IMG/VR virus record: IMGVR_UViG_3300023179_000059 | Span: 25,759 to 89,758 of that record | Length of the DNA: 64,000 nucleotides | Origin: a virus | Taxonomy: Duplodnaviria > Caudoviricetes | Reading direction: 5' to 3' (one strand) | Shown: in pieces, positions 3,406 to 58,172 of the stretch | Layout of the letters: every line of letters starts with the position of its first letter | Position numbering within the stretch: the stretch's first letter is position 1 | Program-made: the position numbers and the translations under genes | The notes under the pieces: generated by a model | What the model was told of the DNA's origin: nothing | Database searches by the model: none | The model's input: the letters and a program-made list of their open reading frames with translations, nothing else

Positions 3406-3406
3406 T

Positions 3407-3745
3407 ATGACATCTATTAATATAGATAATAGTTCATTAGATTTATCACAAAATATTACGAATAATACAGCAGTTGATTTATCTTTACAAAATCCAATAT
3501 ATAGTGGTGGACAAGTTAATGATATAAATAGTAATACATCTATCGTATCACCAAATGGATTAAATTTTAATATAGAATTATCTAATGCAAATTTATCTAG
3601 TCAATATGCAATAACAGATTTTACCATTTTTAATCCATATATACACAACACTTCGTTTTATACTTTTAGTACATCTAATTTATTACAAGTTGCTACAAAT
3701 AGATTTAATATTTATTCTCAATCATTTAGGACATGGTTGTCATGA
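3407..3745 (+). CDS. Hypothetical Asn/Ser-rich protein, 112 aa
   Basis: Fills the gap between two large genes; its stop overlaps ATG 3742 of the next gene (ATGA). Confidence 0.55.
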   Translation: MTSINIDNSSLDLSQNITNNTAVDLSLQNPIYSGGQVNDINSNTSIVSPNGLNFNIELSNANLSSQYAITDFTIFNPYIHNTSFYTFSTSNLLQVATNRFNIYSQSFRTWLS

Positions 3746-27539: not shown

Positions 27540-27993
27540 CGTTATTTTTCTTATAAGATTGAGCTTTTTTGCTATTAAACCCGTTTGTTACCCATTGTAA
27601 GTTATTTACTCTAAAATCTGATTTATCATCATTTATATGATCTACCTCTAACTTTTTATTTGTATCATCATTTTCTATAAATGCTAAAGCAACCAATCTA
27701 TGCATCGCAATAACAATACCACCGATTCCAATACAAGGATATTGATTTCTTGTAGTATTTACGGTTAGCTTATTGTTTTTAGGACCAATTACATATGGAA
27801 AACCACCAACATTTTTATGCAGAAAATATTTACCTTGTTCAATAGAATTTAATTTACTTATCATTATATTTGATTTTCTATGCATTTCTTTTTCGCCAAT
27901 AAATTTAACATTGATTTTGCTTACATCTATAAAGTCTAAATCTAAAATTTTTGGTTCGTCATTTTCGAATAATTGTAATTGTTTATTTGACAT
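27529..27993 (-). mobile_element. Free-standing HNH homing endonuclease
   Basis: MHRLVALAFI..EVDHINDDKSDFRVNNLQWVT; AAGGA RBS before ATG 27993. Confidence 0.8.
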
Positions 27994-28678
27994 ATAATTC
28001 CTTATTTGCGAAGGCTTTTTCAAAATTCATGTTTTGGTAAACGGCTCTATGTGTTTTCATTAGCTTTATAAAAATATTAGCTTCATCTTTAACGTCTTGC
28101 AATGCATCGTGTGCATTTTCTTTTGACAATCCCATTATATCTCTTAATGAATCCATGCTTATAGACTTGATTGATGGATCACCTTCTGTCCATGCAAAAA
28201 TATTATCCATAATATCAAATTTATAAACACGACTAAATAGTTTTTGTTTTTCTCTATCTTTATCCCAAGGACCATATTCTCTACATAAACGATCAATGAT
28301 TATCATATCAAATCCAAGAATATTAAATCCAACAGGTATTGGTGCATAAAATGGATCATTTTTCCAATTATATTGCCCAACAAATTTAATAAACTTATTC
28401 CAAACTACTTTTAATGTTGGGGCATTTTCTAGCTGTTCTCTAGTTTTATGTGTTATCTTTAGTGCTTCATCTTCTATTGGGTCTAACCCAAGACTGATTG
28501 CTTTTTCATCATCAAGCACAGGCTTAATTTCACTATTAAATTGTCCCTTGAGCTTAAGATTTCTACCATCTAATGCTAGTGCGGCAATTTGAGTTGGCTG
28601 TGTTTTATTTGGATTACGAGATCCCGTCTCCCAATCAAATATTATATAATCACGATTTGCCATAAATATGTTCTCCAT
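27983..28678 (-). CDS. dnaQ: DEDDh 3'-5' exonuclease (DnaQ/epsilon-like)
   Basis: FDWETG (ExoI), GFNILGFD (ExoII), HDALQD (ExoIII). Confidence 0.85.
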   Translation of the reverse strand: MENIFMANRDYIIFDWETGSRNPNKTQPTQIAALALDGRNLKLKGQFNSEIKPVLDDEKAISLGLDPIEDEALKITHKTREQLENAPTLKVVWNKFIKFVGQYNWKNDPFYAPIPVGFNILGFDMIIIDRLCREYGPWDKDREKQKLFSRVYKFDIMDNIFAWTEGDPSIKSISMDSLRDIMGLSKENAHDALQDVKDEANIFIKLMKTHRAVYQNMNFEKAFANKELYVK

Positions 28679-28733
28679 GTGAAGTAGAGCTATATAGTGT
28701 CTTAAAAATTGTTTGATCTTTATGATTTTAAAA

Positions 28734-30362
28734 CTAGATTAAGTCTTTTGTGTGCATTATTTTATCTAATAATGATAAGCCTAGAATATCAAATTTTACA
28801 TGACCCAAGGCTTCCAAGTCTGACATTTCTAATCCAGCAATTTTTTCATTAGATCCCTTTTCTTTAACCATTGGACATGCTTTATATAATGGTTCTGCTG
28901 AAATTACAACTCCAGCCGCATGTTTTCCTTGTGTTTTAAAAGTACCTTCTATTGCTATTGCTTGTTTAAAGTATTCTGCATATTCACCATCTAATTTACC
29001 ATCATCATTAATATAACAAAAGTCTCTTAATTCTTTGGAGTTATTTATTAATGCCCAACGAATAATTGATCTTTCGTCATCATCCATATCCGCAAGTTGA
29101 TCTGATATTTCTGCCTCATTTGGAATATATTTTGTAATCGTATTCATTTCTGCAAATGAACATGCTTCGTACACTCTCAATACTTCTTTAATAGCACTTC
29201 TACCCTGCAATCTACCAAACGTTAACATTTGACTCACATGATCATTGCCATATTTTGTTTTTAGATATTCAATGACATTATCTCTTTTCTTACTTGGAAC
29301 GTCCATATCTATATCTGGTAGTGATATATGATCTTTAGAATTTCTTCCGTCGTTATAAAATCTACTAAATAATAGATCATATTCTAATGGGTCTATTTGT
29401 GTAATACCAAGAAGATAAGATATTAAACATCCAGCGGCACTGCCTCTGCCGGGACCAGATAACCACCCTTGATTATTAACATATCTAATAATATCTTGAA
29501 CTATTAGAAAATATCCGAACAAGTTTGCTCTATTAATTACGCCAAGTTCTTCGTTAAATCTGTCTCCATACAATTTTTTCGAATCTGGAGAATTAACTTT
29601 ATTTGTAGCTATTAATAATCTTCTCCATCCATCACGACATAATTCTTTTAAGTATTCTTCTTCCGATATACCATTTGGACAATCAAATCTTGGAAGCATT
29701 GGTTGATTTAATATATTATATTCTTCGCACTTACTTAGTATTTCTTCCAAGTCTTTTGCCTGTTCTTTTGAATACTTTACATTTTCTAAATCTTTAGAAG
29801 ACCATAAATATTTATTGTCTTTTATGAAAAAGTCTTTTATGTCTTCTGGTAATTCTTCTTTTCTAATTTGCTTTTGTACCTTTGGTAATGTCGTTTTCAT
29901 GTTTGAACAAAGTAATATTCTATGCAATTCTACATCCGATTGATCTATGTAATAACTTTTTGGAGTTAATATAGAATATGCATAAGAGTCCTCACCAAGT
30001 GCGGTATACTTTTTATCAGATAGGCAAATGAGATTTTGTTTTGCAAATATTTCTTTACACAATTCAGACGGAAGATTTCCATCTTCATCTAATGATGAAA
30101 CTAATTCTATTAAATCTAGCCAGCCATTTTTATTCTTTGCAAATAAAATATAATTATCAAATGAACATCCAATTATTGGCTTAATGCCAGCGTCTTTACA
30201 AGCCTTGAAAAAAGATATTGCACCAGAAATAGTCTTATAATCAGCTATTCCACATGCTGAATATCCATTTTCTTTACACTTTTTTGCAAGTTCTTTTGGT
30301 TTAGAAAAACCACGCAAAAGACTATAATGAGTATAATTTATCAAAGGCGACCAATTCAACAT
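28734..30362 (-). CDS. dnaE: DNA polymerase III alpha, N-terminal half (degenerate PHP + palm/thumb)
   Basis: GPGRGSAAG, LLFSRF, LPDIDMD, GKHAAGVVI and KFDILGL. Start at 30362 (AAGGA RBS), not 30467. Confidence 0.9.
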   Translation of the reverse strand: MLNWSPLINYTHYSLLRGFSKPKELAKKCKENGYSACGIADYKTISGAISFFKACKDAGIKPIIGCSFDNYILFAKNKNGWLDLIELVSSLDEDGNLPSELCKEIFAKQNLICLSDKKYTALGEDSYAYSILTPKSYYIDQSDVELHRILLCSNMKTTLPKVQKQIRKEELPEDIKDFFIKDNKYLWSSKDLENVKYSKEQAKDLEEILSKCEEYNILNQPMLPRFDCPNGISEEEYLKELCRDGWRRLLIATNKVNSPDSKKLYGDRFNEELGVINRANLFGYFLIVQDIIRYVNNQGWLSGPGRGSAAGCLISYLLGITQIDPLEYDLLFSRFYNDGRNSKDHISLPDIDMDVPSKKRDNVIEYLKTKYGNDHVSQMLTFGRLQGRSAIKEVLRVYEACSFAEMNTITKYIPNEAEISDQLADMDDDERSIIRWALINNSKELRDFCYINDDGKLDGEYAEYFKQAIAIEGTFKTQGKHAAGVVISAEPLYKACPMVKEKGSNEKIAGLEMSDLEALGHVKFDILGLSLLDKIMHTKDLI

Positions 30363-30395
30363 ATTCAATTCCTTAATAGTGTAATGCAACACTAT

Positions 30396-30424
30396 ATTAT
30401 AGCAACGTAGAACCAAAAATGCAA
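30396..30424 (-). promoter_or_regulatory. Sigma70-type promoter of dnaE-N: TTGCAT-N17-TATAAT with TG extension
   Basis: Minus strand ttgcat ttttggttctacgttgc tataat. Confidence 0.7.
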
Positions 30425-30434
30425 GATGGACACG

Positions 30435-30458
30435 CTGCGGAAATATTTCATTCCGCAG
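30435..30458 (-). terminator. Hairpin CTGCGGAA-N8-TTCCGCAG (possible terminator or processing site)
   Basis: Perfect 8-bp inverted repeat in an intergenic gap; no clear U-tract. Confidence 0.4.
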
Positions 30459-30473
30459 AGTGACCAATATAAA

Positions 30474-31217: not shown

Positions 31218-32225
31218 TTACCAGCTTTTACAGGCCCAATAACGAGCTTTCCATTTTGGACCGGGATTATCACAATTATGTCTTGCTCTAAAGCTCTTTC
31301 TTCTTTCTGGTATATTTTTTTTGATTTTCATATTTGGATCACCAAAACGAACGATAACAACATTGCCACTTTCATTTTTTGTATATACAGCAAATTTCTT
31401 TGGACCATTTGAGGTTCTAAATGGTTTATTTAATGTTACTTTACGTCCTTGATATTCTGCTGCTTTACCAACAAATATTAAAGAATGACCATTTTTTTCA
31501 TAAACTCCACGCCTATTATATGTATAGACTTCTTGTGTAATAGGATCTTGATACTGGAATTTTGATTCTGTATCTTCCATTTCATCTTCAATATCATCTA
31601 CTTCAGATGGCTCGTCTATATATTCATCTTCATATTTACTAGGTTCATAATATGTAACAAAGTCAAATACATTTTGTACATATATTTCTGCTTTAGAAAT
31701 CATATCTTTAGTCCAATCTTGAAATTCTATTTCCATTAATTTCAGCTTCATGATAACTGACATTAACTGATCATGCATTTTTTGTATTTGTTCTATAGCC
31801 ATCTCGTCTCCGCTACCAGACTGAGCCTTTTTCCAAGCATCTTTGCTTGGTCTATCTGGATCTCCCGGTTTTGCTGGCTTATAATTTTTTCCCTCACGCT
31901 CCTTTTTCTTACGAATATTCTCCCATAGACCGGGCTTTTCTGCCGCACAGTCCCATTCTTCTATTGTTTCTCCAAAGTCTACATATTCTGCTGCTGTTGG
32001 AACATAAAAATTATCTTCATTTAATTCTTCTTCATATCCATATGCTTCGATTTGCATTTGAAAATCGGCGGCTTCTATACAATTGCAATCTGCTGTTGCT
32101 TGCTGTATGCAAATAGCCACTCTTTGTTTTTCATCTGGATATTCTTTCTTCATTGTTTCATTACTCATACAACGAGAAACAAAATTATCTTTTTGTTCAT
32201 CTTTTTTTCTTGATGGAATTGGCAT
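31218..32225 (-). CDS. Modular basic/acidic protein with C-terminal DUF6321-like module (possible head internal protein)
   Basis: FVSRCM..EYPDEKQRVAIC; GLWENIRKK; VRFGDPNM..RRKSFRARHNC..ARYWAC..W. Confidence 0.55.
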   Translation of the reverse strand: MPIPSRKKDEQKDNFVSRCMSNETMKKEYPDEKQRVAICIQQATADCNCIEAADFQMQIEAYGYEEELNEDNFYVPTAAEYVDFGETIEEWDCAAEKPGLWENIRKKKEREGKNYKPAKPGDPDRPSKDAWKKAQSGSGDEMAIEQIQKMHDQLMSVIMKLKLMEIEFQDWTKDMISKAEIYVQNVFDFVTYYEPSKYEDEYIDEPSEVDDIEDEMEDTESKFQYQDPITQEVYTYNRRGVYEKNGHSLIFVGKAAEYQGRKVTLNKPFRTSNGPKKFAVYTKNESGNVVIVRFGDPNMKIKKNIPERRKSFRARHNCDNPGPKWKARYWACKSW

Positions 32226-33102: not shown

Positions 33103-34122
33103 TCAACCGGGGGATTCATAAAAACCTATGTCGAAATCTTCTCTTTTACAATCGTTGACAGTCTTTTGCATACCATTTTCTTGTAAATATCTATCTATAT
33201 ATACACACATACTTTGATCTGTGTCTTTCCAGTTGTTTTTACAAAAATGGCATAATTTAGTGCATTTCCAGTTACTTCTATCATCAGAAATGGGTTTTGG
33301 CTTGTTATTTCTCTGTATTTCCTTAAATCTATCTTTAAGCATATTTAAGAATATTGTCTGATCGTTTTGATCAAAACATAGGGAAAATGGCCCACCGTCC
33401 TTAATGAAAAATATAGACATAATTGACTGTTTATATTCTGGAAAAAGTTTAGATATTGCATAATTATATAGTAATAATTGTGGATCTTTGCCTAATTTAG
33501 CATATGTTTTTTCTTCTCCAGTAGCCCAATCTAATCTTCTTCCTGTTTTCCAATCTACTACTTCTATAATTCCCGGCTCAGATTCTGTTACAAGATCTAT
33601 TGTGCCTTTTATTGCCAGTTGTCCCTTTATCTTTTTACCGTCTATTTCGTATTCGTATTTTGCCCAATCTTCTTCTATTGGAATATCAAAGTGTGGTTCT
33701 GCGGCAATAATATTTCTATTTCTTGGATCAAATTGTCCATTATTAAAATTTAGTGCATTAAAGCATAATTCTAGACAATCATTTTTATCATATTTTGAAA
33801 ATGTATTATGAGACTTATTAGTATAAAAATCAAAGCTTTTTTCTAGTAATTGACTCACAATTTCTTTTTTAAATAATGCTGCTGAACCAACAGATATACT
33901 TCCTACGGCATCGTCATTAATAGTTATTTTTTTGCTCTTTGGATTATCTTGTAATTCTTTTTTAAGCTTGGCTAACGACTCCATTACCTTATGAATAATT
34001 GTGCCAAGGTCTGCTTTTTTTCCACTTAAAGATTGATATCCAAGAACATATGTAATAAAGTATTGCATCTCACAATAAGCATAGTTATTATAACTAGAAG
34101 ATCTAACGTATGTTACAATCAT
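33103..34122 (-). CDS. PD-(D/E)XK RecB/Cas4-like exonuclease
   Basis: N-terminal Cys, GTIIH, GTIDLV, VVDWKTG, QLLLY and C-terminal C..LCHFC Fe-S ligands. Confidence 0.8.
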   Translation of the reverse strand: MIVTYVRSSSYNNYAYCEMQYFITYVLGYQSLSGKKADLGTIIHKVMESLAKLKKELQDNPKSKKITINDDAVGSISVGSAALFKKEIVSQLLEKSFDFYTNKSHNTFSKYDKNDCLELCFNALNFNNGQFDPRNRNIIAAEPHFDIPIEEDWAKYEYEIDGKKIKGQLAIKGTIDLVTESEPGIIEVVDWKTGRRLDWATGEEKTYAKLGKDPQLLLYNYAISKLFPEYKQSIMSIFFIKDGGPFSLCFDQNDQTIFLNMLKDRFKEIQRNNKPKPISDDRSNWKCTKLCHFCKNNWKDTDQSMCVYIDRYLQENGMQKTVNDCKREDFDIGFYESPG

Positions 34123-41261: not shown

Positions 41262-41611
41262 GTATCACCTGTAATAATATATTTTTGTTTTTGTTCAGCG
41301 GTCATTTTATTAATTTGTTTTTTACTTGCTTTTCCAAACTGAGAAAATAGAGATTGATTTTGTGCCTCTTTTTCTTTTTGCTGTGTCTCTATTTCTGATC
41401 TTTTATATGTTCCAATCTTAGACCAATTTTTATCTGCTAATTGACCTATAGTTTTTACATCTTTGACAAAGGCACCAAGACCACCGCTTATTTGCCTCTC
41501 TAAAGAATGTAAACCGCAATTTGGACATAGGGTAATAGGATCATCATGTATTGATTGATAATGGTCTATCACCCTATGTTCACAATTAGTACAGAAATAA
41601 TCGTATAACAT
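41258..41611 (-). CDS. FmdB-family zinc-ribbon protein
   Basis: MLYDYFCTNCEH..Q..D.PITLCPNCG..L.R.IS. Confidence 0.8.
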   Translation of the reverse strand: MLYDYFCTNCEHRVIDHYQSIHDDPITLCPNCGLHSLERQISGGLGAFVKDVKTIGQLADKNWSKIGTYKRSEIETQQKEKEAQNQSLFSQFGKASKKQINKMTAEQKQKYIITGDT

Positions 41612-42330
41612 TATTGCTCCAAAGCGTATAGCACACTGGCTATAATTCCGTTCCTCTGTATATCATGGTAGTCTAATTTACAGATTCCGACACCATTTAA
41701 ACTATTTAGTCTATCTAAGCAAAAAGATAGTCCACTTTTATTAAATAGATCAGTTTGCTTCATGTCACCATTAATAATAACTTTAGAATTTTTACCCATT
41801 CTTGTTATGAACATTTTGATCTGTTCCATAGTACAATTTTGAGCTTCATCTAAAATCATATATGAATTATGAAATGTCATTCCTCTCATAGTTTCAAGTG
41901 GTTCAAATCTAATTCTATTAGTATTTACATAAAGTCCAAATTTATCTCTACCAAGAAAATACTTTAGATTTTCTGTCATAGGTGCTAAATATGGCTTTAT
42001 CTTTTCATTTAGTTCTCCGGGTAATGATCCTATATCCTTACCAGTACACACTAGTGGTCTTGTAACTATAATAGATTCTATTTTATCTTTACATAAATGT
42101 TCAGACGCTATTCCGGCAGCGATAAAAGATTTACCTGTACCAGACGGGCCAATACAAAATGTAATATCATTTTCTATTATAGATAGAATATAGTCTTTTT
42201 GATTCTCCGTTTTTGCTTCTAAGGGATTGGTTTGATTTACGTCTTTTGTTTTTTGCTTTTTTGTTTTTTTAAACGAATTGTTATGCTCCGGTGCTGCCAA
42301 AACCGTTATCTCCCCTTTGCGAAGAGCCAA
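41611..42330 (-). CDS. phoH: PhoH-like ATPase (start uncertain)
   Basis: GPSGTGKS, RGMTF, ILDEAQN, GDMKQTD. Confidence 0.9.
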   Translation of the reverse strand: MALRKGEITVLAAPEHNNSFKKTKKQKTKDVNQTNPLEAKTENQKDYILSIIENDITFCIGPSGTGKSFIAAGIASEHLCKDKIESIIVTRPLVCTGKDIGSLPGELNEKIKPYLAPMTENLKYFLGRDKFGLYVNTNRIRFEPLETMRGMTFHNSYMILDEAQNCTMEQIKMFITRMGKNSKVIINGDMKQTDLFNKSGLSFCLDRLNSLNGVGICKLDYHDIQRNGIIASVLYALEQ

Positions 42331-42784
42331 GCGTTTCTAAAACCCGCATAGTCACGCGAGGAACTTCTTGGAATATAATCTGCGCGATTCTATCCCCGAT
42401 ATTTATTCGTACAGAACTAAAAGAAGTATTGTACAAACATACCATAACTTCCCCTCTATAGCCAGCATCTACGACACCAGCCAATACATCAAGACCATGT
42501 TTTACAGATAGTCCAGAACGGGGCCAAATTAGGCCAGCCATAGTGTCTGGAATTTCCATCATAATACCAGTATTTATTGTTTTTCTTTGTTTTGGTGGTA
42601 TAACAATATCTTCTATTGAGTATAAATCCCAACCAGCGTCCGTTAAATTAGCTTTTGTTGGAACCTTTGCGTATTGGTGATTTAATACAATTCCTACATC
42701 TGGTGATGGAGAAGCAAAATTGCTGTTTAATGTTATTGAATATAATTCTTGATTGTCACCAATACATGTTGGCAAAAAGCTCAT
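42281..42784 (-). CDS. dut: Trimeric dUTPase
   Basis: AGWDL, RSG, GVVDAGYRGE, RIAQII, RGDNGFGSTG. Confidence 0.92.
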   Translation of the reverse strand: MSFLPTCIGDNQELYSITLNSNFASPSPDVGIVLNHQYAKVPTKANLTDAGWDLYSIEDIVIPPKQRKTINTGIMMEIPDTMAGLIWPRSGLSVKHGLDVLAGVVDAGYRGEVMVCLYNTSFSSVRINIGDRIAQIIFQEVPRVTMRVLETLGSSQRGDNGFGSTGA

Positions 42785-43857
42785 AATAGTCCTCCTAAGT
42801 CAATATCCCCTAAATCATTTTTACTAGCACCAATTTTATATGAAGTGATTTCATGTTCTTGTGGTGCAACTTGAACAGATTCACTATTCATCCACGGATC
42901 TGTCCATCCTGCAATTGGATTTTTATATCCTTTTTCATATGGAAGACCTATATTCTTACGCCTTGTCATACATAGCCAATCAATATATTCGCTCATTACC
43001 CTATCATTTAAACCTATGATTGAGCCATCTTTAAATAGATATTGTGACCACGCCTTTTCTTCACTAGCGGCAGAATCAAACATTCTACAAGCCTCTTCTT
43101 CGCATTCTGAGGCTATTTCCACAAAGCCCTCTTCTGGAACAGTGCGTAAGATCTTTATTATTTCTTGTGTGTTATATAGATGTAACGCTTCGTCTCTTTT
43201 GATAAGCTTGATAATATCAGCGTTACCTATCATTTTTTTATTTTCCGCAAAAGCAAACGCACATATGAATGATACATAAAAACGAATTGCTTCCAATATA
43301 TTTACACTTATTAGCGTTAAATATATCTGTTTTTTAAGATCTTTTTTCTTGGTTGAATTACCAAGCTCCCTAAGAGCATTATACTCCTTAATTGCTACAT
43401 CTGCCCTTTTTAAGATCTCTTTATCGGTAAGACAACTATCTAGAATCTCGCTAGGATCGCTATACACATTTTTGATGATATATGTATAACTATAACTATG
43501 AATTTGCTCAAAAAATTGCCAGACGTTCATACATGCCTCTAATTCTGGATTAGAAACATAACTTAGCAATGTTGGTACTCCACGACAAATTACAGAATCC
43601 ATCATTGTCTGATATTTAAGATTAGATGTAAAAATGAAACGCTCATTTGGAGTCATTATATCATCATTCTTAAAATCATTTCTATCCTTTTTTAATTCTA
43701 TTTCTTCTGGCCTCCAGAAAAATTCTAGTTGCTTTTTATATAGGTCAAAAAATACTGGATATTTAAACTTATCATATCTCTGTAGAGATAGATCTTCACC
43801 TAAGAATAATGGTTGCTCTAGATAGTTTACATTTTTTTTATTAAGTATCGTTTGCAT
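42781..43857 (-). CDS. nrdB: Class Ia ribonucleotide reductase beta subunit
   Basis: FFWRPEE, EQIHSYSY (radical Tyr), LEAIRFY, RDEALH. Confidence 0.92.
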   Translation of the reverse strand: MQTILNKKNVNYLEQPLFLGEDLSLQRYDKFKYPVFFDLYKKQLEFFWRPEEIELKKDRNDFKNDDIMTPNERFIFTSNLKYQTMMDSVICRGVPTLLSYVSNPELEACMNVWQFFEQIHSYSYTYIIKNVYSDPSEILDSCLTDKEILKRADVAIKEYNALRELGNSTKKKDLKKQIYLTLISVNILEAIRFYVSFICAFAFAENKKMIGNADIIKLIKRDEALHLYNTQEIIKILRTVPEEGFVEIASECEEEACRMFDSAASEEKAWSQYLFKDGSIIGLNDRVMSEYIDWLCMTRRKNIGLPYEKGYKNPIAGWTDPWMNSESVQVAPQEHEITSYKIGASKNDLGDIDLGGLL

Positions 43858-43858
43858 A

Positions 43859-45103
43859 TTAGCTTGTATACCTCAGAATATTTTTGGCTTTTTCTTGTAC
43901 GAACATCATTGGTCTGTTTTCTATACTATACCAATCTGCATCTTTCTTTACACCCATATGTTCTAAAATTGTCCACTTTAAATCTTCTGGCTCAAATGGA
44001 TGATCTACTGGCCTCTCTCCATTGTTATCAGAAGTACCAATCACTCTATTCATTTCATATGTATCACATGCTATTAATAGTGGAACTAAATGCGGCCAAT
44101 GATCTCTACCAGCATCTTTATTAATTTTTGGTGTTCTTCCAAAGTCACCACTCATTACTAATAGATTTCTATAGTTGATATTTCTTTGTTCTGCTGAATT
44201 AAAATACATTGATAATACATGATCTAATGCTGGTACTTTACTTTTTAGACCATTTAGTATGTTATCATGCATATCCCATCCGCCATAGTTAATTGTAACA
44301 AATTTTACACCAGCCTCTACAAGTCTAATAGCGGTCAGCATATCTTTACCAAGTTGGCTATCTTTATAGCTATCAAAATCTTTATCTTTTTCTATTAAGA
44401 AAGCCTCACCCGCTTTTCCTACTAATACATCTACTGCTTGATTTCTTAATTCAAGCCAAGCGTTAGCGTTACGGTCATCTGGTATTGGACTATGTTTTTC
44501 AAGAACTTCTAACATTTTCATTCTGTCGTTGAACTTCTTTTCATTCTTCATAAATAGATCATTTACACCTTCTTTGTTTGCCGTATAGCCCATATATTTA
44601 GTACCCATCCACGCGGCACCATCATACTGAATTGTATTTAATTTAATATAAGAAGGTAGACCATTTTTTATATTTGTTCCATATTGACCGGCGACAACGC
44701 TACCAAAACTGGGCCACTTTGGTGGGCTATTTGGAGTAGTTCTTTCTCCAGTTAACATCCAATGTGTAGCACTTTCATGGTTTGGGTCAGAATGGTGAAA
44801 ACTATTTACTATAGTTAATTTATTAGTTTGATTTGCTATTTTATCCCACATTCCACCAATAGCAAAGCCCGGTATCTTTGTATGTATATTACCAGTAATA
44901 GATTTTCTATCTGATGGAGCTAGTGGTAGTGGATTAAATGTTTCAATGTGTGTTGGCCCACCGCTAAGATATAGATATATAACGCTATTATCATTTGCAG
45001 TAAACTTAGGATCATTATTATAATTAATAGAAAAACTGATATTATTATATGTTGCAGTTAAACCAGCAACACTTGTCGATAGTAAGAAGTTTCTACGTTT
45101 CAT
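43859..45103 (-). CDS. Tat-exported DUF1501 family protein
   Basis: MKRRNFL twin-arginine signal; YLSGGPTHIETF, GWDMH, GDFGRTP and GRDHWP motifs. Confidence 0.85.
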   Translation of the reverse strand: MKRRNFLLSTSVAGLTATYNNISFSINYNNDPKFTANDNSVIYLYLSGGPTHIETFNPLPLAPSDRKSITGNIHTKIPGFAIGGMWDKIANQTNKLTIVNSFHHSDPNHESATHWMLTGERTTPNSPPKWPSFGSVVAGQYGTNIKNGLPSYIKLNTIQYDGAAWMGTKYMGYTANKEGVNDLFMKNEKKFNDRMKMLEVLEKHSPIPDDRNANAWLELRNQAVDVLVGKAGEAFLIEKDKDFDSYKDSQLGKDMLTAIRLVEAGVKFVTINYGGWDMHDNILNGLKSKVPALDHVLSMYFNSAEQRNINYRNLLVMSGDFGRTPKINKDAGRDHWPHLVPLLIACDTYEMNRVIGTSDNNGERPVDHPFEPEDLKWTILEHMGVKKDADWYSIENRPMMFVQEKAKNILRYTS

Positions 45104-45158
45104 ATTTATTACCTTTTATTAAATTATCTTTTGCCCATAAGGGTTGTAAGTTTGTATT

Positions 45159-47387
45159 TTATATACTACACGATCCACTTTCGCACCCATGATTATTATC
45201 TCCACGCTCACAATCTCCATCTGGAGTGTTACAGTAATAAAAATTCTTAATACCATACTTATAACCGTATATTTGATCTTTAATCAACGTGCTTAATGGA
45301 ATATTTCCATCTTGGAAATGTGAATAATTATAATATAAATTAACACTAATGCTCATATCTACAAATTTTTGTAACACCGCACAAATATTTAAAATAGCCT
45401 TATTATCTTTCATGTCCCAAGCAAGTGTATAAAAATTCTTTCTTGAAGCATAATTTGGCACTAGTTGTTTTAAAACACCATTTTTTGCCTTTTTATAAGA
45501 CATAAGATTTCTAACTGGCTCAATACCATTTGTGCTATTTTGAATAACACTAGAAGATTCACATGGCATTATAGCAGTTAATGTTGAATGTCGCAGACCA
45601 TGTTGTGCTATTCTATTTCGTAAACCCTCCCAATCCATAGTATATTCTGGTTTTACCAGTTCGTCAACTGTTTTTTTGTACCAATCTATTGGTAAAAGAT
45701 TTGTAGAATATTTTGTTTCATTAAATTTATTACATGGTCCAAACTTTTCTGCTAATCTACATGATTCGCTAAGTAAATACCACTGTATTTTTTCCATTGT
45801 AGTATGTACAAACTTTAAAGTATCTGGATCATCATATTTTAATTTATTTTTTGCAAGATATCCAGCAAAGTTTGTTATTCCTATACCAAGTGATCGTCTA
45901 TTTTTTGTAAAATTTTCACCGGCTAATACTGGATAGTCTTGATAATCAATAATTGATTCTAATGTTTTAACGGTTATAGAACATGCTTTTTCTATATCTT
46001 CTTCAGAATCAAATTGTAGTAAATTAAGTGCAGATAATATACAAATTCCAATTTCTCCATCTGGATCGTCTATTGATTTGATTGGCTCAGTTGGATGAAT
46101 AATTTCTTGACAAAGATTGCTCATGTAAACTGGCTTTAACCAAGAACCGTGTTCATTGGCATTATCAATATTCATTACATAAATACGACCAGTTTCTAGT
46201 CTTTCTTTTGCGAATACTTCTGCTAATTTTCTGGCACTGATCTTCTTTTTCATTATGCCTCTAGTATGTTCGTATTTTTCGTATAGTCTTTTAAAATCAT
46301 CATTATCATTCATTGAACTATATAGTCCACCAGTTTCTTCTGGACTAAACAAAGTAATATCCTCATTCTTAATGAGACGTTCATAGAATAATTTATTAAA
46401 CTGTATAGAATAATCCAGCTTTCTAACTCTATTATCGTCAGTTCCAGCGTTATTCTTTAATACCACAATGTCTTCAATTTCATAGTGCCAAAATGGAACG
46501 TGTACCGTTGCAGAGCCACCACGAATACCATTCTGACTTGTGGCCTTTACTGTTGATTCAAATATTTTTAGATATGGTATTAAGCCAGTATGTATAACTT
46601 CACCACCACGAATACTAGAATTAATTGGCCTAATACGACCAACATTTAAACCTATACCAGCCCTTCTTGCGGTATATTTACCAACAGCGTGTACGCTTGA
46701 AAATATTGAGTTTAAATCATCTTCTACATCAACCAAAACACAACTAGCAAATTGTTTTATTTTTGTTCTTACTCCAGCCATAATTGGTGTTGGTAAGTTT
46801 ATTTTATGTGTAGAAAAATATTCATATGCTTCTAAAACTTCTTCAACAGTATTGAATAAAGATAGTGCTATGCAAATATAAGCAAACTGTGGAGTTTCAT
46901 ATATTTTTCCAGTACTTCTATTTCTTACAAGATATTTATCTATCATTTGCTGTAATCCAGCATATGTAAATAAATAATCTCTATCATGATCTATTGACTT
47001 TTCTATTTCATTAATATCGTCTTTTGTCCATTTTGTAAATAAATTACTGTCATATACCTCTTGGCTAGCATTATTACAAATGTGATCATATAAAGAGGGT
47101 GGAGAATCATATCTCTCCCAAAGATCTTTTCTAAGTGACATATTCAATAGTCTAGAAGCGACATATTGATAGTTTGGATTAGTTTTTGATGTTAAATCAT
47201 TTGCAGACTTAATTAATATTTGATGTATTTCTTGTGTAGTTATTTTTTCGCGTAATGAAAGGTGTGCGTTCATTTCAATATCGGAAAAAGATACGTTGTT
47301 TATATCTTTAGTTGCCCACTCCACAACCTTATGTATCTTCTCTACATTGTATTCTTCAAATTCTCCACTCCTTTTCATTACCAACAT
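45159..47387 (-). CDS. nrdA: Class Ia ribonucleotide reductase alpha subunit with ATP cone
   Basis: VMKRSG ATP cone, PTP, ASCVL, SNLCQEI, PCESSS and C-terminal C..GSC. Confidence 0.92.
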   Translation of the reverse strand: MLVMKRSGEFEEYNVEKIHKVVEWATKDINNVSFSDIEMNAHLSLREKITTQEIHQILIKSANDLTSKTNPNYQYVASRLLNMSLRKDLWERYDSPPSLYDHICNNASQEVYDSNLFTKWTKDDINEIEKSIDHDRDYLFTYAGLQQMIDKYLVRNRSTGKIYETPQFAYICIALSLFNTVEEVLEAYEYFSTHKINLPTPIMAGVRTKIKQFASCVLVDVEDDLNSIFSSVHAVGKYTARRAGIGLNVGRIRPINSSIRGGEVIHTGLIPYLKIFESTVKATSQNGIRGGSATVHVPFWHYEIEDIVVLKNNAGTDDNRVRKLDYSIQFNKLFYERLIKNEDITLFSPEETGGLYSSMNDNDDFKRLYEKYEHTRGIMKKKISARKLAEVFAKERLETGRIYVMNIDNANEHGSWLKPVYMSNLCQEIIHPTEPIKSIDDPDGEIGICILSALNLLQFDSEEDIEKACSITVKTLESIIDYQDYPVLAGENFTKNRRSLGIGITNFAGYLAKNKLKYDDPDTLKFVHTTMEKIQWYLLSESCRLAEKFGPCNKFNETKYSTNLLPIDWYKKTVDELVKPEYTMDWEGLRNRIAQHGLRHSTLTAIMPCESSSVIQNSTNGIEPVRNLMSYKKAKNGVLKQLVPNYASRKNFYTLAWDMKDNKAILNICAVLQKFVDMSISVNLYYNYSHFQDGNIPLSTLIKDQIYGYKYGIKNFYYCNTPDGDCERGDNNHGCESGSCSI

Positions 47388-49270: not shown

Positions 49271-51192
49271 TTAGAACACTTTATCTAGTGTCCACTCTAC
49301 TTTCCTTGGTGGAAAGCCTTCTACATCACTAAAAACCCAAGAGCCATTAGCTGAAAGCATACCGGCAGCATCGCTTTCTCTAATCCAAAAACTACCTTCT
49401 GGTTGATCATGTCTAGTAGGCCCATTATTCCAAACTCCCCAACTATTCTGTACTAAAAATAAAGTTTCATTATATATTTCATGAGTATCATCCATTCCAA
49501 CCCATGCCATAGCATGTGACCAAGATCCAGATTGAGAAGCTATACCATATTTATCCCGTCTAGAACTAAATCCAAACATTGAACATACACTAATACAATA
49601 ACCATTGGCTATTGCATCTCTAGCTTGTTCAACTGTATTTATTAAACTTACAGTTTTAACTTTATTTTTCTGAGCTATTTCTATTAGTGATTTTGGTACA
49701 CCCCTTGAACCCCAACTAGCACCAAGTCTTCCTTGATATGATGATAAATCTATATCACCATATTTCTTTCTTAGTAATATACCACCATTTTGATTAACAA
49801 ATCTAGCGGCACCAGAACATGTCATTCCTTCTCCACCATGACCTCTAGATCCATATATACCTTCTGTTGCACCACGGGCAACAAATTCTTCACGTTCGCC
49901 ATTTATTATTTCACAACTACGTGTACAATCTATTGCATTACGAGTAGAGTGTGAAACACAGTTGTGGGCAATACACCCATTTGCTATAAAAGCATGTTCT
50001 TTGCAGTTCACGCCTATATCATAAACAATGTGCGGCCCTTCTTCTATTTTTATTTCACATACTGGTATAAATAATTCATCATTTATGATTATAGAATAAT
50101 TTTTCTGCTTATCATAAATACACACAACTCTATAAGACTGACTTTCTTTATATGCACCCCTTTTAGCTCTATAAAAATAGTTAATCGTTGGCTTGTATCC
50201 CATTTTTAAATATGAATAATACACGCCATATGCTAATGACCTAGAAGTTGAATCAAATATTGTTTTTCCATTTTTAGTAAAACCATCTGCGGATGTTAAC
50301 CCTTGTATTGTTTCTTTTGAACCAATAAACCAATTTGGGAAAGTTTTATTTTTTTGATTGTCATAACATATTGATCTTAACCATGATGCTAACTCTGGAC
50401 AATAACATCTTAATCTAAAAGCGGTTGTATTTTTACTTTTATAATCACATCTACGCGGATTAAATCCAAATTTAGTTAAGAAATTACTGCATTTATTAAA
50501 AAAGTCTACTTGGTGTTCAGCAAAAGTAATTTCTATATTTTTGTTATTACACCAACCATCACCCAAAAAATAACCTAAAAACCAAGTAAAATCTTTATCT
50601 TGAGTAAATCTATTTATTGGAGCATTTTCTACCTGTAAATTAATAGGTGTAATGACATAATCACCCTTTTTAATATCTTGTGCGGCTACCCATTTCTTAG
50701 TAATTACTTTTGTCTGTGTTGAACCATTATCTTGTTCTCTTTTCTTCCAATAAGAACTTGATGATCAGAAGTAACTTTAAGTGGAATACTACCCTTAGTT
50801 TTAATAGTTACCAATGGATTGTTAGATACTTTTACTTGCTTACTAATAACAGTCGTAAAATTACCATTACTTCCGTATATTTTGTCTCCAACTTCTACAT
50901 CCTTAATTTTTTTACAATATGCACTAACCACTATAGAGTTGCCATCAAAACAATCTCCGACTACCTGTCTTTCTGAGGGACCAAAGCCAGAGTCAAATTT
51001 TAATAAATTTTTAAATGGTAAAGCAAGTTTACCTTTACCAGTTTCATATAAGCTGTAAGCTGCCGCACCAAATAATGGGTGCGGCAACTCACCTAATAGC
51101 TTATCTGTATCTTCTGGATCACACCAAGATCCAACAAAGCCATTTTTATAAGCTTTTAGAAGATCAGAAGGTTTATTAAAATCTGTACTCAT
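49271..51192 (-). CDS. Papain-family (C1A-like) cysteine peptidase interrupted by an intein; single frameshift near 50740
   Basis: Exteins rejoin as ERQVVGD|CVSH; SWSHAMAWVG (His) and VQNSWG (Asn) complete the triad. Confidence 0.8.
49961..50952 (-). mobile_element. LAGLIDADG intein (~331 aa if one base is restored)
   Basis: CFDG start, VTSDHQV block B, FLGYFLGDG and QGLTSADG, VYDIGV..AFIANG.IAHN|C end. Span is 992 nt (3n-1). Confidence 0.85.
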
Positions 51193-53706: not shown

Positions 53707-54093
53707 TTATCTTAACATGTCAGATGGTTGTATGCAAGGTTGTGAGCTTATAGAATCTTTATATGTATTTATAAATTTATTGTTTTCGTTTTTTGCTGCC
53801 TGTTTTGCAATATGTTGAATTAGTAAAATAACTAATTTTTCTTGACCGACCTTGATCAAATTTTCTTTAATTATATTTACTGTCTCTACATAACACTTAT
53901 CTTCAGATAAAACATCTAGAATTTGAAATAAAGAATTCATTGATTGTTCATCATATTCTTTAATGGCTATATCAACAACAACAGAACTATCTTTTTTTAT
54001 AAAGTATGTTATATTTGCAATTACTTCTTCTTCTAGATCAATGTGTTCTTTGTTAGTATTATTTATATTTTTAGATTTGAAGAAATTAAACAT
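53707..54093 (-). CDS. Hypothetical protein
   Basis: Coupled ORF. Confidence 0.5.
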   Translation of the reverse strand: MFNFFKSKNINNTNKEHIDLEEEVIANITYFIKKDSSVVVDIAIKEYDEQSMNSLFQILDVLSEDKCYVETVNIIKENLIKVGQEKLVILLIQHIAKQAAKNENNKFINTYKDSISSQPCIQPSDMLR

Positions 54094-55144
54094 ATTTTAA
54101 CACCATTTGTGCAGAGTTTTTCCAAGTATATTTATGTGCCGTCTCTATTCCGTGTTGGTTAATCTTTAGTTCTCCCATATTTTTAAGTTTATAGATATTT
54201 TTCATATGGGTGATTATATTATCTATTTGATTAGATCCTATCTTTGCCCATTTACCTATTTTTCCATGAAACCAAATGCCGTCATAGGCCAAAGTGTCTT
54301 CATCTATATCTATTAGATATGAATTATTATTATTACAAAATTCTAGATGTGCAGAATATTTAGTAGTTATAACACTTTTACCACATGCCATCATTTCCAA
54401 TAATTCTAAATTCCACCCTTCTGCTCTGGCCGGAAATATTCCACAATCTGTTTGGCACATAATATTATACACTTCATTTTGTGTTCTTGTTCTTTTAATA
54501 ATCTTTATTTTATCACCAAGTTTGCTATTTTTATATAGATTTATCCAAGATTTTTCCTGTTCTTCATTTAAAAATGGATTCTCGCACATCATCCATAATT
54601 CAACATTGTCTTGATTTATGAACGCTTTATTGAAAGCTTCTACTATAATATCATGTCCTTTTCTTATTTCCCATTTTCCACAATTAAAAAATATTGTTTT
54701 TTCTGATGCATTTTGTTCTTGAGGTTTAAATATATCAATATCAACGCCAAGTGGAATAACTGATACATTATTATTTGATATAGATATTTGATCTAATACT
54801 ACATCCTTGGCCCATTCTGAAGTTACAAATATTTTATCTAAATAAGAAAGATGATGTTTTTCTATATCGGAAAATTCGTTTAATTCAAAGAACGGAAAAC
54901 CAATTTTATTTCCCTTACCAATAAATTGTGCCATATCATGCTGATGCCATATTCTAATACATGGTGCATTAAAATCTGGCTTGATAGCGTTTGATAATGC
55001 TTTTCTTACTATATTTGCGTCTTCTTCGCTGGTAATTTGTATTTGACCTATAGGCCATAATGATACTTCTGGTAAGTTTTTTATTATATTAAAACCAGCA
55101 ATACCATATCCTAACTGATTTATTGGTGATATTATATTTATCAT
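54086..55144 (-). CDS. GT4 glycosyltransferase
   Basis: LGYG, PLGVD, GKWEIRKG, EGWNLELLEMMACG. Confidence 0.85.
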   Translation of the reverse strand: MINIISPINQLGYGIAGFNIIKNLPEVSLWPIGQIQITSEEDANIVRKALSNAIKPDFNAPCIRIWHQHDMAQFIGKGNKIGFPFFELNEFSDIEKHHLSYLDKIFVTSEWAKDVVLDQISISNNNVSVIPLGVDIDIFKPQEQNASEKTIFFNCGKWEIRKGHDIIVEAFNKAFINQDNVELWMMCENPFLNEEQEKSWINLYKNSKLGDKIKIIKRTRTQNEVYNIMCQTDCGIFPARAEGWNLELLEMMACGKSVITTKYSAHLEFCNNNNSYLIDIDEDTLAYDGIWFHGKIGKWAKIGSNQIDNIITHMKNIYKLKNMGELKINQHGIETAHKYTWKNSAQMVLKYV

Positions 55145-55686
55145 TTTATATCCTTAAAGAATAACCAGCGTTCTAATTGAACAGTTTTTTCTAAACTATC
55201 TATTACTTGAAGATGATTTATTATTTCTTCCATAGAGTTAAAAATATTTTCGTGCGGTAGCATAAAAAATAACCAATTTGGAGCTTTATTTTTTCCCTGC
55301 TCACACCATATTAATACTGGTTTTTTTTGTCTATTTGCAGTTACTATTTCTTCATAAGAGCCACACATATGTATGCTCATATCTATATTTGCTATGATAA
55401 AATCTGAAATATCAACACATCTAAGATCAACATTGCGAATAATACCATATTCTTCTCTAATTTTATCATATTGTCCAGATTGTTTATAAAATTCTATTTT
55501 AGATCTAGTATGTTCATTTTCTTGTATATTATCAATTTGTTTTTTGCATGGATCTAAAACTATAATTCCAAGATCTTCTAGGTGTGGAGTTATTCTTTCT
55601 CTCCATCCTCTACCACCATCTGGTACTCTATCCATAGCACCAACTAGGTAAGTTCTCATTCCACTAAGATTGTTTTTCAAAGCCAT
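55141..55686 (-). CDS. Nucleoside 2-deoxyribosyltransferase / nucleotide hydrolase-like
   Basis: YLVG.M, WRE..VLDP, DLRCVD.SD, GSYEE. Confidence 0.7.
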   Translation of the reverse strand: MALKNNLSGMRTYLVGAMDRVPDGGRGWRERITPHLEDLGIIVLDPCKKQIDNIQENEHTRSKIEFYKQSGQYDKIREEYGIIRNVDLRCVDISDFIIANIDMSIHMCGSYEEIVTANRQKKPVLIWCEQGKNKAPNWLFFMLPHENIFNSMEEIINHLQVIDSLEKTVQLERWLFFKDIK

Positions 55687-57549: not shown

Positions 57550-57744
57550 TCAAGTTTCTTCTGTTATATAACGTAAGACTTGCTGATGTGTCCAAGTACT
57601 TGTATATTCTCCAAAGGTCGATAATTCTGCAATTTCTTTATATTCTAGTTCTAGTTTAAGAATTAATTGTATTATTACTTCTTCATTGTGAGATATAATA
57701 CAATCATTTACTAATTTTCTTATTATTTCTGATCTTGTTTTCAT
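57550..57744 (-). CDS. Hypothetical 64 aa protein
   Basis: ATGA coupling. Confidence 0.5.
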   Translation of the reverse strand: MKTRSEIIRKLVNDCIISHNEEVIIQLILKLELEYKEIAELSTFGEYTSTWTHQQVLRYITEET

Positions 57745-58172
57745 ATTTCGTAATAATCTATTTCTATATTTGCTTCATTAAATAATTGTCTAGATAACTT
57801 AAAATCATTTTCCCATCTATCTATTTTATTTATTGGTGCAACAATTCTTTTTATACCAGATTGTATTATAATACCAGCACATCTTGGACAAGGTTCAAAT
57901 GGATAAGTATATAATGTACAATCTTCTAAGTTCCTGTTTGCAAAAGTAATTGCATTTATTTCTCCATGTACGATGATTTTATATTTTGTTTCTCTATCAT
58001 TTAGTCTTTCATCATCCTTTATTCCTTTTGGAAAACCATTATAACCAATAGAAACAACTCTGTTGTGTTTATCAGATATAACGGCACCAACTTTTGTAGA
58101 TGGGTCTAAACTCCAATTAGAAACAAATCTAGCTAATTCTAGAAATCTAACGTCCCACTTTTGTAAACTCAT
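57741..58172 (-). CDS. dCMP deaminase
   Basis: SLDPSTKVGAVI, GYNG, VHGEINAI, PCPRC. Confidence 0.9.
   Translation of the reverse strand: MSLQKWDVRFLELARFVSNWSLDPSTKVGAVISDKHNRVVSIGYNGFPKGIKDDERLNDRETKYKIIVHGEINAITFANRNLEDCTLYTYPFEPCPRCAGIIIQSGIKRIVAPINKIDRWENDFKLSRQLFNEANIEIDYYEI

What the first reader, a model, noticed from the sequence alone, without database searches (positions are those of the whole stretch)
43859..45103. Tat-exported DUF1501 protein inserted between nrdA and nrdB
Seen: an intact ORF with an RRNFL signal and conserved family motifs, splitting the nrdAB operon. Known: DUF1501 is of unknown function, resembles the alkaline-phosphatase/sulfatase superfamily, and is greatly expanded in Planctomycetota. 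Inserts in phage nrdAB are usually homing endonucleases. Inference: a host-derived periplasmic auxiliary gene, possibly phosphate- or nucleotide-scavenging given nearby phoH and dut, and a host marker.
Basis: partly seen in the sequence, partly recalled or inferred. Interest (0 to 1): 0.7.

Follow-up and report, generated by a model that had tools for sequence, protein, structure and literature searches.

The report
Phage DUF1501 gene between nrdA/nrdB
An uncultured ~160-kb freshwater phage carries an intact, strongly conserved gene for an exported enzyme of the unstudied DUF1501 family, wedged between its two ribonucleotide-reductase genes. The gene belongs to an old, virus-only branch of a planctomycete-type subfamily, so it is an optional phage accessory gene rather than a fresh copy from the host.

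Summary
ORF 43859-45103 (-) encodes a full-length 414-aa DUF1501 protein (Pfam E 3.5e-59) with an MKRRNFLL twin-arginine motif. It lies 55 nt after nrdA and 1 nt before nrdB.

- **Not an assembly chimera.** The same gene order occurs in 11 IMG/VR contigs, each from a different metagenome.
- **A true insertion.** In 64 close relatives nrdA abuts nrdB directly or with other cargo between them (HNH endonuclease, FkbM methyltransferase).
- **Accessory.** Four relatives that are 94-100% complete lack the gene.
- **Not recent host DNA.** At least 573 viral contigs carry relatives (39-99% identity), at five or more genome positions. These form a clade (support 100/99) with no named cellular member. 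The best cellular matches reach only 36% identity. That clade sits in a subfamily whose seven named cellular members are all Planctomycetota.
- **Functional.** dN/dS is 0.02-0.05 and all family-invariant residues are kept.
- **Fold.** Alkaline-phosphatase superfamily (Z 19-20). It has no sulfatase C/S-x-P-x-R motif and no partner gene.

The link to phoH and dut is positional only. A planctomycete host is plausible but unproven, and the substrate is unknown. This scan has noted phage-borne DUF1501 many times on other DNA.

The parts
43859..45103 (-). DUF1501 coding sequence, 414 aa (P0001), stop TAA at 43861-43859
   Evidence: Pfam PF07394, E 3.5e-59, full-length; dN/dS 0.02-0.05 against close relatives.
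45002..45103 (-). N-terminal signal region (about residues 1-34): MKRRNFLL twin-arginine motif, a weakly hydrophobic stretch, no lipobox Cys
   Evidence: In the AlphaFold model the pLDDT averages below 55 over residues 1-30. The Tat profile models did not fire, so this rests on the conserved motif only.
45104..45158 (-). 55-nt spacer between the nrdA stop and the DUF1501 start, with a purine-rich AAAAGG before the ATG. It is absent in relatives where the nrdA stop and the DUF1501 start overlap (ATGA).
   Evidence: No terminator-like site.
45159..47387 (-). nrdA, class I ribonucleotide reductase large subunit with ATP-cone (742 aa)
   Evidence: Best named matches are about 55% identical, to Pelagibacter and cyanobacterial myophages.
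42781..43857 (-). nrdB, ribonucleotide reductase small subunit (358 aa). Its ATG lies 1 nt after the DUF1501 stop.
41611..42784 (-). Downstream context: dUTPase (42281-42784) and PhoH (41611-42330)

Best explanation
This is an optional phage accessory gene ('moron' or auxiliary gene).

**Shown**
- It encodes a stand-alone, full-length DUF1501 protein, an alkaline-phosphatase-superfamily fold with a His/Asp/Glu-rich conserved site and a twin-arginine N-terminus.
- In one freshwater sublineage of an uncultured ~160-kb phage group with a DnaE-type polymerase, it was inserted at the nrdA|nrdB junction.
- That junction is a hot spot. In sister phages it is empty or holds HNH endonucleases, FkbM methyltransferases or other small genes.
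- The gene belongs to an old clade with no named cellular member. The clade has spread through this phage group at five or more genome positions, always in the replication and nucleotide-metabolism region.
- It is kept under purifying selection as strong as that on nrdA and nrdB.

**Inferred**
- It is co-transcribed with nrdA and nrdB early or in the middle of infection.
- It is exported folded, and probably metal-loaded, through the host Tat pathway.
- It acts in the host periplasm as a metal-dependent enzyme on a small periplasmic or envelope substrate. A phospho- or sulfo-ester-type hydrolysis is the most likely chemistry given the fold. It would do so without a phage-encoded partner.
- The ultimate donor was a planctomycete-type lineage, long ago.

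The confidence of 0.6 is for the whole statement. Identity, insertion, accessory status and selection are near-certain; the chemistry alone would rate about 0.35.
For: **Identity and integrity:**

**Family invariants.** The residues kept in all or nearly all of the 68 viral and 76 cellular sequences are G48, G49, E54, H104, H109, H114, D277, H279, D294, D/E320, F321, R323, T324, N328, R333, D334, H335 and R397.

**Selection.** dN/dS is 0.022-0.046 for DUF1501, against 0.043-0.121 for nrdA and 0.023-0.030 for nrdB in the same phage pairs.

**Fold.** AlphaFold pLDDT 81.5, pTM 0.85. VIA-align Z 18-20 over residues 33-414 to choline sulfatase, NPP/ENPP, PafA/SPAP phosphatases and phosphonate monoester hydrolase.

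**Operon context.** No terminator. The nrdA stop and DUF1501 start overlap (ATGA) in relatives.

**Insertion polarity.** Of the relatives with NrdB 83-92% identical that also showed nrdA in the fetched stretch, 64 lack DUF1501 there. Their nrdA-nrdB gap is 0-70 nt, or holds other inserts that include HNH_3 and FkbM domains.

**Accessory status.** 0 of 4 relatives that are 94-100% complete hold the gene, including two with terminal repeats, 161 and 167 kb.

**Spread.** At least 573 IMG/VR stretches carry relatives, at five or more positions.

**Tree.** 27 viral plus 10 unnamed metagenomic rows form a clade with support 100/99. It lies inside a group (100/100) whose seven named cellular rows are all Planctomycetota.

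**No partner.** No homologue of any cellular neighbour gene is found in the window or the viral loci. PSD1 and PSCyt2 are absent from five DUF1501-bearing viral records, two of them 99-100% complete. The positive control found 68 PSD1 matches in one Pirellulaceae genome.
Against: - No DUF1501 member has a known activity, so the chemistry is inference from the fold alone.
- The position where sulfatases and NPPs carry their nucleophile appears to hold an invariant His (H109). This is my motif reading, counted back from the conserved 'TG', and is not confirmed by a residue-level structural alignment. There is no C/S-x-P-x-R motif. The enzyme may therefore not be a classical hydrolase.
- The Tat profile models did not fire. 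Export rests on the conserved RR-x-F motif.
- Transcription timing was not measured.
Confidence: 0.6

Rival explanations
1. Recent capture from the current host, so the gene is a reliable marker of a planctomycete host.
For: - The nearest named cellular relatives are Planctomycetota, 7 of 7 in the subfamily.
- A second, independent phage DUF1501 lineage in related phages also groups with planctomycete and verrucomicrobial genes.
- The family is concentrated in the Planctomycetes-Verrucomicrobia group (PMC3542564).
Against: - At most 36% identity to any of the best cellular matches.
- The clade that holds the gene has no named cellular member (support 100/99).
- The gene's GC (33.9%) lies within the window's 1-kb range of 24-37%. 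The closest cellular loci have 46-71% GC.
- The gene is absent from near-complete sister phages.
- One cluster member is binned in a Crocinitomicaceae (Bacteroidota) MAG.

A planctomycete host as such is not excluded (my estimate is about 0.45). Only the 'recent capture, hence marker' logic fails.
Confidence: 0.1
2. A phosphate or nucleotide scavenging enzyme, analogous to cyanophage phoA/pstS or to the Tat-exported PhoX/PhoD phosphatases, feeding the nucleotide metabolism encoded next to it.
For: - The alkaline-phosphatase-superfamily fold matches NPP/ENPP and PafA-type phosphatases as well as it matches sulfatases.
- It has a Tat-type N-terminus, like PhoX and PhoD (established knowledge).
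- It lies inside the nrd operon, next to dut and phoH.
Against: - The neighbourhood is not conserved: there are five or more other positions in related phages, and the junction takes unrelated cargo.
- No Ser/Thr is conserved where I place the nucleophile position. T51 is Ala in most cellular members.
- There is no sequence match to any phosphatase family.
Confidence: 0.25
3. A replacement or extra catalytic subunit that docks onto host-encoded partner proteins (PPC-domain and PSCyt/PSD proteins). This would work only in planctomycete or verrucomicrobial hosts.
For: - Many of the closest cellular loci have DUF1501 followed directly by an 800-950-aa PPC-domain protein, as in the four-gene module of PMC3542564.
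- The phages carry no partner.
- Earlier follow-up notes of this scan proposed this model for other phages. Those notes are unchecked.
Against: - The cellular rows nearest to this gene's clade (L088-L094) are not next to PPC or PSCyt genes. Their neighbours are a GFO/IDH/MocA oxidoreductase, an FAD oxidase and a gamma-glutamyltranspeptidase.
- At 36% identity or less, a docking surface is unlikely to be preserved.
Confidence: 0.15
4. A decaying passenger or selfish insert with no function, or an assembly chimera.
For: The junction is an insertion hot spot that also holds homing endonucleases.
Against: - dN/dS is 0.02-0.05 and all invariant residues are kept.
- The same junctions occur in 11 contigs from 11 metagenomes.
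- At least 573 viral relatives exist.
Confidence: 0.02

Closest known systems
DUF1501 (PF07394) proteins of Planctomycetota and Verrucomicrobiota (Kamneva et al. 2012, PMC3542564)
   Same: - Full-length profile match.
- The same RR-x-F N-terminus.
- Every family-invariant residue is present.
- Similar length: about 410 aa here, against 430-450 aa in the cellular proteins.
   Different: - At most 36% identity.
- It lies in a clade with no named cellular member.
- It stands alone, without PPC, PSCyt or PSD neighbours.
- It is encoded in a 30%-GC phage, inside an nrd operon.
Phage auxiliary genes for exported phosphate-acquisition proteins (cyanophage phoA, pstS) and the Tat-exported phosphatases PhoX and PhoD
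   Same: A phage-borne, exported protein with an alkaline-phosphatase-superfamily fold (this applies to phoA). It is carried patchily as an accessory gene.
   Different: - No sequence relation.
- The catalytic residues differ.
- No link to phosphate limitation has been shown.
- No activity is known.
Type I sulfatases and NPP/ENPP phosphodiesterases (structural neighbours)
   Same: The core alpha/beta fold (Z 18-20). The C-terminal D294...(D/E)320-F-G-R-T stretch aligns with the sulfatase ...S-D-x-G metal-ligand strand.
   Different: - No C/S-x-P-x-R formylglycine motif.
- The Asp at the end of strand 1 is replaced by G48-G49.
- An invariant His (H109) sits where I place the nucleophile position.
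Homing-endonuclease insertions in phage nrd genes
   Same: The same kind of site. Sister phages carry an HNH gene at this very junction, and one carries an intein plus a GIY-YIG gene in nrdA.
   Different: The cargo here is a 1.2-kb enzyme gene with no endonuclease domain and no flanking repeats.

Membership tests
DUF1501 (Pfam PF07394) | Full-length match to the family profile above the gathering score | tested here: met
   201 bits against a cut-off of 27; profile positions 2-387 of 390.
DUF1501 (Pfam PF07394) | Family-invariant residues (GG, H104, H109, D277-x-H279, D294, E/D-F-G-R-T, N328, R-D-H 333-335, R397) | tested here: met
   all are present in P0001 and in 68 of 68 viral rows.
DUF1501 modules of Planctomycetes-Verrucomicrobia bacteria (DUF1501 + PPC + PSCyt/PSD) | An adjacent partner gene (PPC-domain protein, PSCyt1/2 or PSD1) | tested here: not met
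   no homologue of any cellular neighbour gene in the window or the viral loci. PSD1 and PSCyt2 are absent from five viral records; the positive control was positive.
Tat (twin-arginine) exported proteins | An S/T-R-R-x-F-L-K-type motif followed by a weakly hydrophobic stretch | tested here: met
   MKRRNFLL; RR is kept in 97-99% of relatives; mean Kyte-Doolittle hydropathy of residues 5-19 is 0.87.
Tat (twin-arginine) exported proteins | A match to the Tat signal profile models (TIGR01409, PF10518), or demonstrated export | tested here: inconclusive
   no match. These are short models that often miss true signals. Export itself cannot be tested here.
Alkaline phosphatase superfamily (fold level) | The core alpha/beta fold, superposable on solved members | tested here: met
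   Z 18-20, rmsd 3.0-3.8 Å over 241-251 aligned residues for the sulfatase, NPP/ENPP and phosphonate monoester hydrolase rows cited. Foldseek probability 1.00.
Type I sulfatases (PF00884) | The C/S-x-P-x-R formylglycine motif | tested here: not met
   the motif is absent; no Pfam Sulfatase match at E up to 10.
NPP/ENPP and alkaline phosphatases | A Ser/Thr nucleophile plus a two-metal site (Asp at the end of strand 1; D-x-x-x-H; D-H) | tested here: inconclusive
   D277-x-H279 and D334-H335 are present. The end of strand 1 holds G48-G49 instead of Asp, and His109 sits where I place the nucleophile (my motif reading). No residue-level structural alignment was available.
Phage auxiliary or 'moron' genes | Patchy presence among close relatives, variable position, purifying selection | tested here: met

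The most novel reading that the evidence does not exclude
The virus-specific DUF1501 clade marks a large, uncultured group of ~160-kb aquatic phages with DnaE-type polymerases that infect Planctomycetota, a phylum with almost no known phages. Its stand-alone enzyme would alter a periplasmic or envelope process peculiar to those hosts. That would give the first experimental handle on one of the largest orphan families of the Planctomycetes-Verrucomicrobia group.
Probability: 0.35. Interest if true: 0.7.

Novelty: new member of a known kind. Interest (0 to 1): 0.5.

Why it matters
DUF1501 is one of the most expanded protein families of unknown function in Planctomycetota and Verrucomicrobiota. 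Here a compact version without a partner gene is carried by many uncultured aquatic phages and is under selection as strong as that on an essential enzyme. That suggests it does something useful during infection, and it could be expressed and assayed on its own.

The case also shows that the nrdA|nrdB junction of this phage group is a general cargo slot, not only a homing-endonuclease site. It is a caution as well: a family typical of one phylum, found in a phage, is not by itself a host marker.

No cultured phage (0 of 50,697 GenBank records) and no paper found in the searched library describes a phage-borne DUF1501. One UniProt entry from an uncultured phage carries the annotation.

Tried and rejected
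The genomic contexts of the unnamed metagenomic homologues could therefore not be seen.

**Searches that found nothing**
- tblastn of P0001 against 50,697 GenBank phage records gave no match. PHROGs and NCBIfam gave no match.
- A sequence search of solved structures gave only weak local matches to two sulfatases (E 0.12-0.55).
- hhalign of the phage alignment against planctomycete NPP and sulfatase alignments built here aligned only the C-terminal metal-ligand strand. My placement of H109 at the nucleophile position therefore stays a motif-based inference.
- No model coordinates are available, so the clustering of conserved residues in space was not checked.
- No direct or inverted repeats of note flank the gene. 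No tRNA lies in the window. No GC island was seen.
- The literature holds no function for DUF1501 and no paper on planctomycete phages with it.

**Host assignment**
- It could not be done here.
- GC was considered as an argument against a planctomycete host and rejected as weak. Large lytic phages can be 15% lower in GC than their hosts, as T4 is relative to E. coli (established knowledge).

Full report
**1. Observation**

The minus-strand ORF 43859..45103 is open for 414 codons. It matches Pfam DUF1501 over essentially the whole profile (E 3.5e-59). PHROGs, NCBIfam and all other Pfam families give nothing.

The N-terminus is MKRRNFLL, followed by a weakly hydrophobic stretch with no lipobox cysteine.

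The flanking ORFs are NrdA (45159..47387: ATP-cone, all-alpha and barrel domains) and NrdB (42781..43857). dUTPase and PhoH follow directly downstream. The spacers are 55 nt and 1 nt. No terminator-like hairpin separates the three genes.

The window is phage DNA. It holds rIIA, a DnaE-type polymerase split into two genes with an HNH gene between them, a DnaB helicase and a RecA-like protein. No cultured phage is close: DnaB and DnaE match GenBank phages at 34% identity or less. NrdA matches Pelagibacter and cyanobacterial myophages at about 55%.

**2. Not a chimera, and a true insertion**

A search of IMG/VR with the protein found nine contigs at 94-99% identity, from nine different metagenomes. 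Eight show nrdA-DUF1501-nrdB. The ninth is cut inside DUF1501, which is followed by nrdB. Two further contigs at 65-66% identity show the same order.

A search with NrdB gave 79 further loci.
- Nine show the same order. They are fresh cuts of contigs already found.
- 64 loci, with NrdB 83-92% identical, have nrdA and nrdB but no DUF1501 in the fetched stretch. Their gap is 0-70 nt, or holds inserts of about 440, 650, 1100-1230 or 2559 nt.
- The other six do not reach nrdA.

Those inserts encode an HNH endonuclease, FkbM-type methyltransferases and Cys-rich unknowns. In one lineage nrdA itself carries an intein and a GIY-YIG gene.

The junction is therefore a cargo hot spot, and DUF1501 is one of several alternative cargos. 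In some relatives the nrdA stop overlaps the DUF1501 start (ATGA). The window and one relative have the 55-nt spacer instead.

**3. Accessory, mobile, selected**

*Accessory.* Four relatives that CheckV rates 94-100% complete lack any DUF1501. Two of them have terminal repeats (161 and 167 kb). One other relative has only a divergent paralogue (27% identity).

*Widespread.* With an alignment of 27 homologues, IMG/VR returned at least 573 stretches that encode relatives at 39-99% identity.

*Mobile.* All 64 more distant viral loci examined, except seven, share other genes with the window at 30-90% protein identity. They belong to the same broad phage group. The gene, however, sits at different places:
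- after the homologue of ORF 33103-34122, upstream of the DnaE genes (about 35 loci);
- beside the homologues of ORFs 31218-32225 and 54086-55144 (12 loci);
- after rIIA, rIIB and ORF 55141-55686 (10 loci);
- near ORF 57741-58172 (4 loci);
- elsewhere.

*Two lineages.* Nine loci carry a second, divergent paralogue.

*Selected.* Against close relatives, dN/dS is 0.022-0.046, in the same range as nrdA (0.043-0.121) and nrdB (0.023-0.030).

**4. Origin**

*Metagenomic homologues.* In 5.8 billion proteins, the 109 hits at 40% identity or more are almost all unnamed metagenomic sequences, on contigs of at most 172,881 bp. That is within the genome size of this phage group. The first named cellular entries (Planctomycetota, Schlesneria) appear at 36-39%. 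One member of a 50%-identity cluster is filed under a Crocinitomicaceae MAG on a 13-kb contig. This is probably a binned phage contig.

*Cellular genomes.* In one genome for each of 185,579 species, the best 80 matches are 29-36% identical. Nearly all are Planctomycetota or Verrucomicrobiota.

*Trees.*
- A FastTree of 215 sequences puts all 68 viral rows and 55 unnamed rows on one side of a branch (support 97), and all 76 cellular rows on the other.
- A careful IQ-TREE run on 73 rows gives a clade of 27 viral plus 10 unnamed rows with support 100/99.
- That clade lies inside a group (100/100) whose seven named cellular members are all Planctomycetota. The order within the group is poorly resolved (support 41-72).
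- The second phage paralogue forms its own clade (100/100) in the other main group (97/98), among the genes of Planctomycetota and Verrucomicrobiota, many of which are followed by a PPC-domain gene.

*Reading.* The gene is of planctomycete type by descent. This phage group took up DUF1501 at least twice. The copy in the window is an old viral lineage, not a recent host copy.

*Composition.* This agrees. The gene has 33.9% GC and the window 30.5%, with no GC island. The viral loci have 31-47% GC and the closest cellular loci 46-71%.

**5. What the protein looks like**

*Conserved residues.* All residues invariant across the viral and cellular sequences are present: G48, G49, E54, H104, H109, H114, D277, H279, D294, D/E320, F321, R323, T324, N328, R333, D334, H335 and R397.

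*Fold.* The AlphaFold model is confident (pLDDT 81.5, pTM 0.85), except for the first ~30 residues, as expected for a signal peptide. Foldseek and VIA-align place it in the alkaline phosphatase superfamily. Choline sulfatase, NPP/ENPP phosphodiesterases, PafA/SPAP phosphatases and phosphonate monoester hydrolases tie at Z 18-20. The fold therefore does not choose a chemistry.

*Catalytic motifs.*
- There is no C/S-x-P-x-R formylglycine motif.
- Profile alignment to sulfatases covers only D294...(D/E)320-F-G-R-T, the counterpart of the ...S-D-x-G metal-ligand strand.
- Counting back from the conserved 'TG' that follows the nucleophile helix in sulfatases and NPPs, the nucleophile position falls on the invariant H109. 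The usual Asp at the end of strand 1 is G48-G49. This is my own reading of the motifs and is not confirmed by a structural alignment. If right, DUF1501 has a non-canonical His-rich metal site.

*Viral structure library.* BFVD holds one annotated phage DUF1501 (A0A6J5M742, from an uncultured phage).

**6. Partners**

Many of the closest cellular loci have DUF1501 followed by an 800-950-aa PPC-domain protein. This matches the module described by Kamneva et al. (PMC3542564).

The Planctomycetota rows nearest to the viral clade have unrelated neighbours instead: a GFO/IDH/MocA oxidoreductase, an FAD oxidase and a gamma-glutamyltranspeptidase.

No homologue of any cellular neighbour gene occurs in the window or in the 87 viral loci. 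PSD1 and PSCyt2 are absent from five DUF1501-bearing viral records, two of them 99-100% complete. The same search finds 68 PSD1 matches in one Pirellulaceae genome. The phage enzyme stands alone.

**7. Most likely mechanism**

*Shown:* an intact, selected, optional gene embedded in the nrd operon, with a conserved twin-arginine motif and an alkaline-phosphatase-superfamily fold.

*Inferred:* it is transcribed with the early and middle nucleotide-metabolism genes, exported folded through the host Tat system, and acts as a metal-dependent enzyme in the periplasm. The substrate is unknown.

My estimates for the function, as separate non-exclusive readings that need not sum to 1:
- about 0.25 for phosphate-ester scavenging;
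- about 0.15 for docking onto host partner proteins;
- much of the remainder for some other periplasmic or envelope reaction.

**8. Host**

A planctomycete host is plausible (my estimate is about 0.45). In favour: the gene's descent, the two separate uptakes, and the family's distribution. Against: the low GC (a weak argument) and the Crocinitomicaceae bin (also weak). No direct evidence could be obtained with these tools.

**9. Novelty and prior notes**

Neither of the two paper searches for DUF1501 and related family names (12 and 11 papers, overlapping) gave a paper that describes a phage-borne full-length DUF1501. No GenBank phage record has one.

This scan has flagged phage DUF1501 genes many times on other DNA: 95 notes in at least 72 genomes. 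One note describes the same nrdA-DUF1501-nrdB arrangement in another genome. Follow-up agents there proposed separate captures from planctomycete hosts and docking onto host partners. These are unchecked AI notes. My own tree supports separate captures. For this lineage it does not support recency or partner docking.

**Verdict:** a real, functional but ordinary-in-kind phage accessory gene from an orphan family. It is of moderate interest.

Noticed in passing
L177-L247 (relatives), the junction that corresponds to window 43857/45159: In sister phages the nrdA|nrdB junction holds alternative cargo: an HNH_3 endonuclease (L208 type, 441-nt gap, in about 10 loci), FkbM methyltransferases (L212, L224, L201) and Cys-rich unknown ORFs (L177, L200). 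It is a general insertion hot spot.
   Followed up: partly
L246:2442-5001 and L247: In two relatives nrdA is interrupted. An intein-splicing-domain match precedes the C-terminal barrel part, and a GIY-YIG endonuclease ORF lies in the 2.5-kb gap.
   Followed up: partly
L019, L020, L023, L025-L027, L029, L030, L063, L248: Related phages carry a second DUF1501 paralogue (26-30% identical to P0001, also with an RR motif). It forms its own clade among the planctomycete and verrucomicrobial genes, many of which are followed by a PPC-domain gene. This is a separate uptake.
   Followed up: partly
window 25179-30467 (-): The DNA polymerase is split into two ORFs (577 and 786 aa), both matching the same PHROG polymerase family. 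The 786-aa ORF also carries HNH endonuclease matches. The best GenBank phage matches are only 28-34% identical.
   Followed up: no
window 49271-50566 (-): A 431-aa ORF has a LAGLIDADG_3 match (E 2.2e-5). This is compatible with the intein that a first-stage note reports in a peptidase gene here.
   Followed up: no
window 155-11630 (+): Four large plus-strand ORFs (500, 583, 1491 and 1140 aa) have no PHROG match at E 1e-5. They are presumably divergent structural or tail proteins.
   Followed up: no
protein P0274 (NCBI MAR66913.1): A member of a cluster 50% identical to P0001 is filed under a Crocinitomicaceae MAG on a 13-kb contig. It is probably a phage contig binned with a bacterial genome. 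It is either a weak host hint or a binning error.
   Followed up: no
G002, G003 (records of L196, L215): Two close relatives have direct terminal repeats at 161,058 and 166,604 bp. This gives the genome size of this phage group. Neither has DUF1501.
   Followed up: yes
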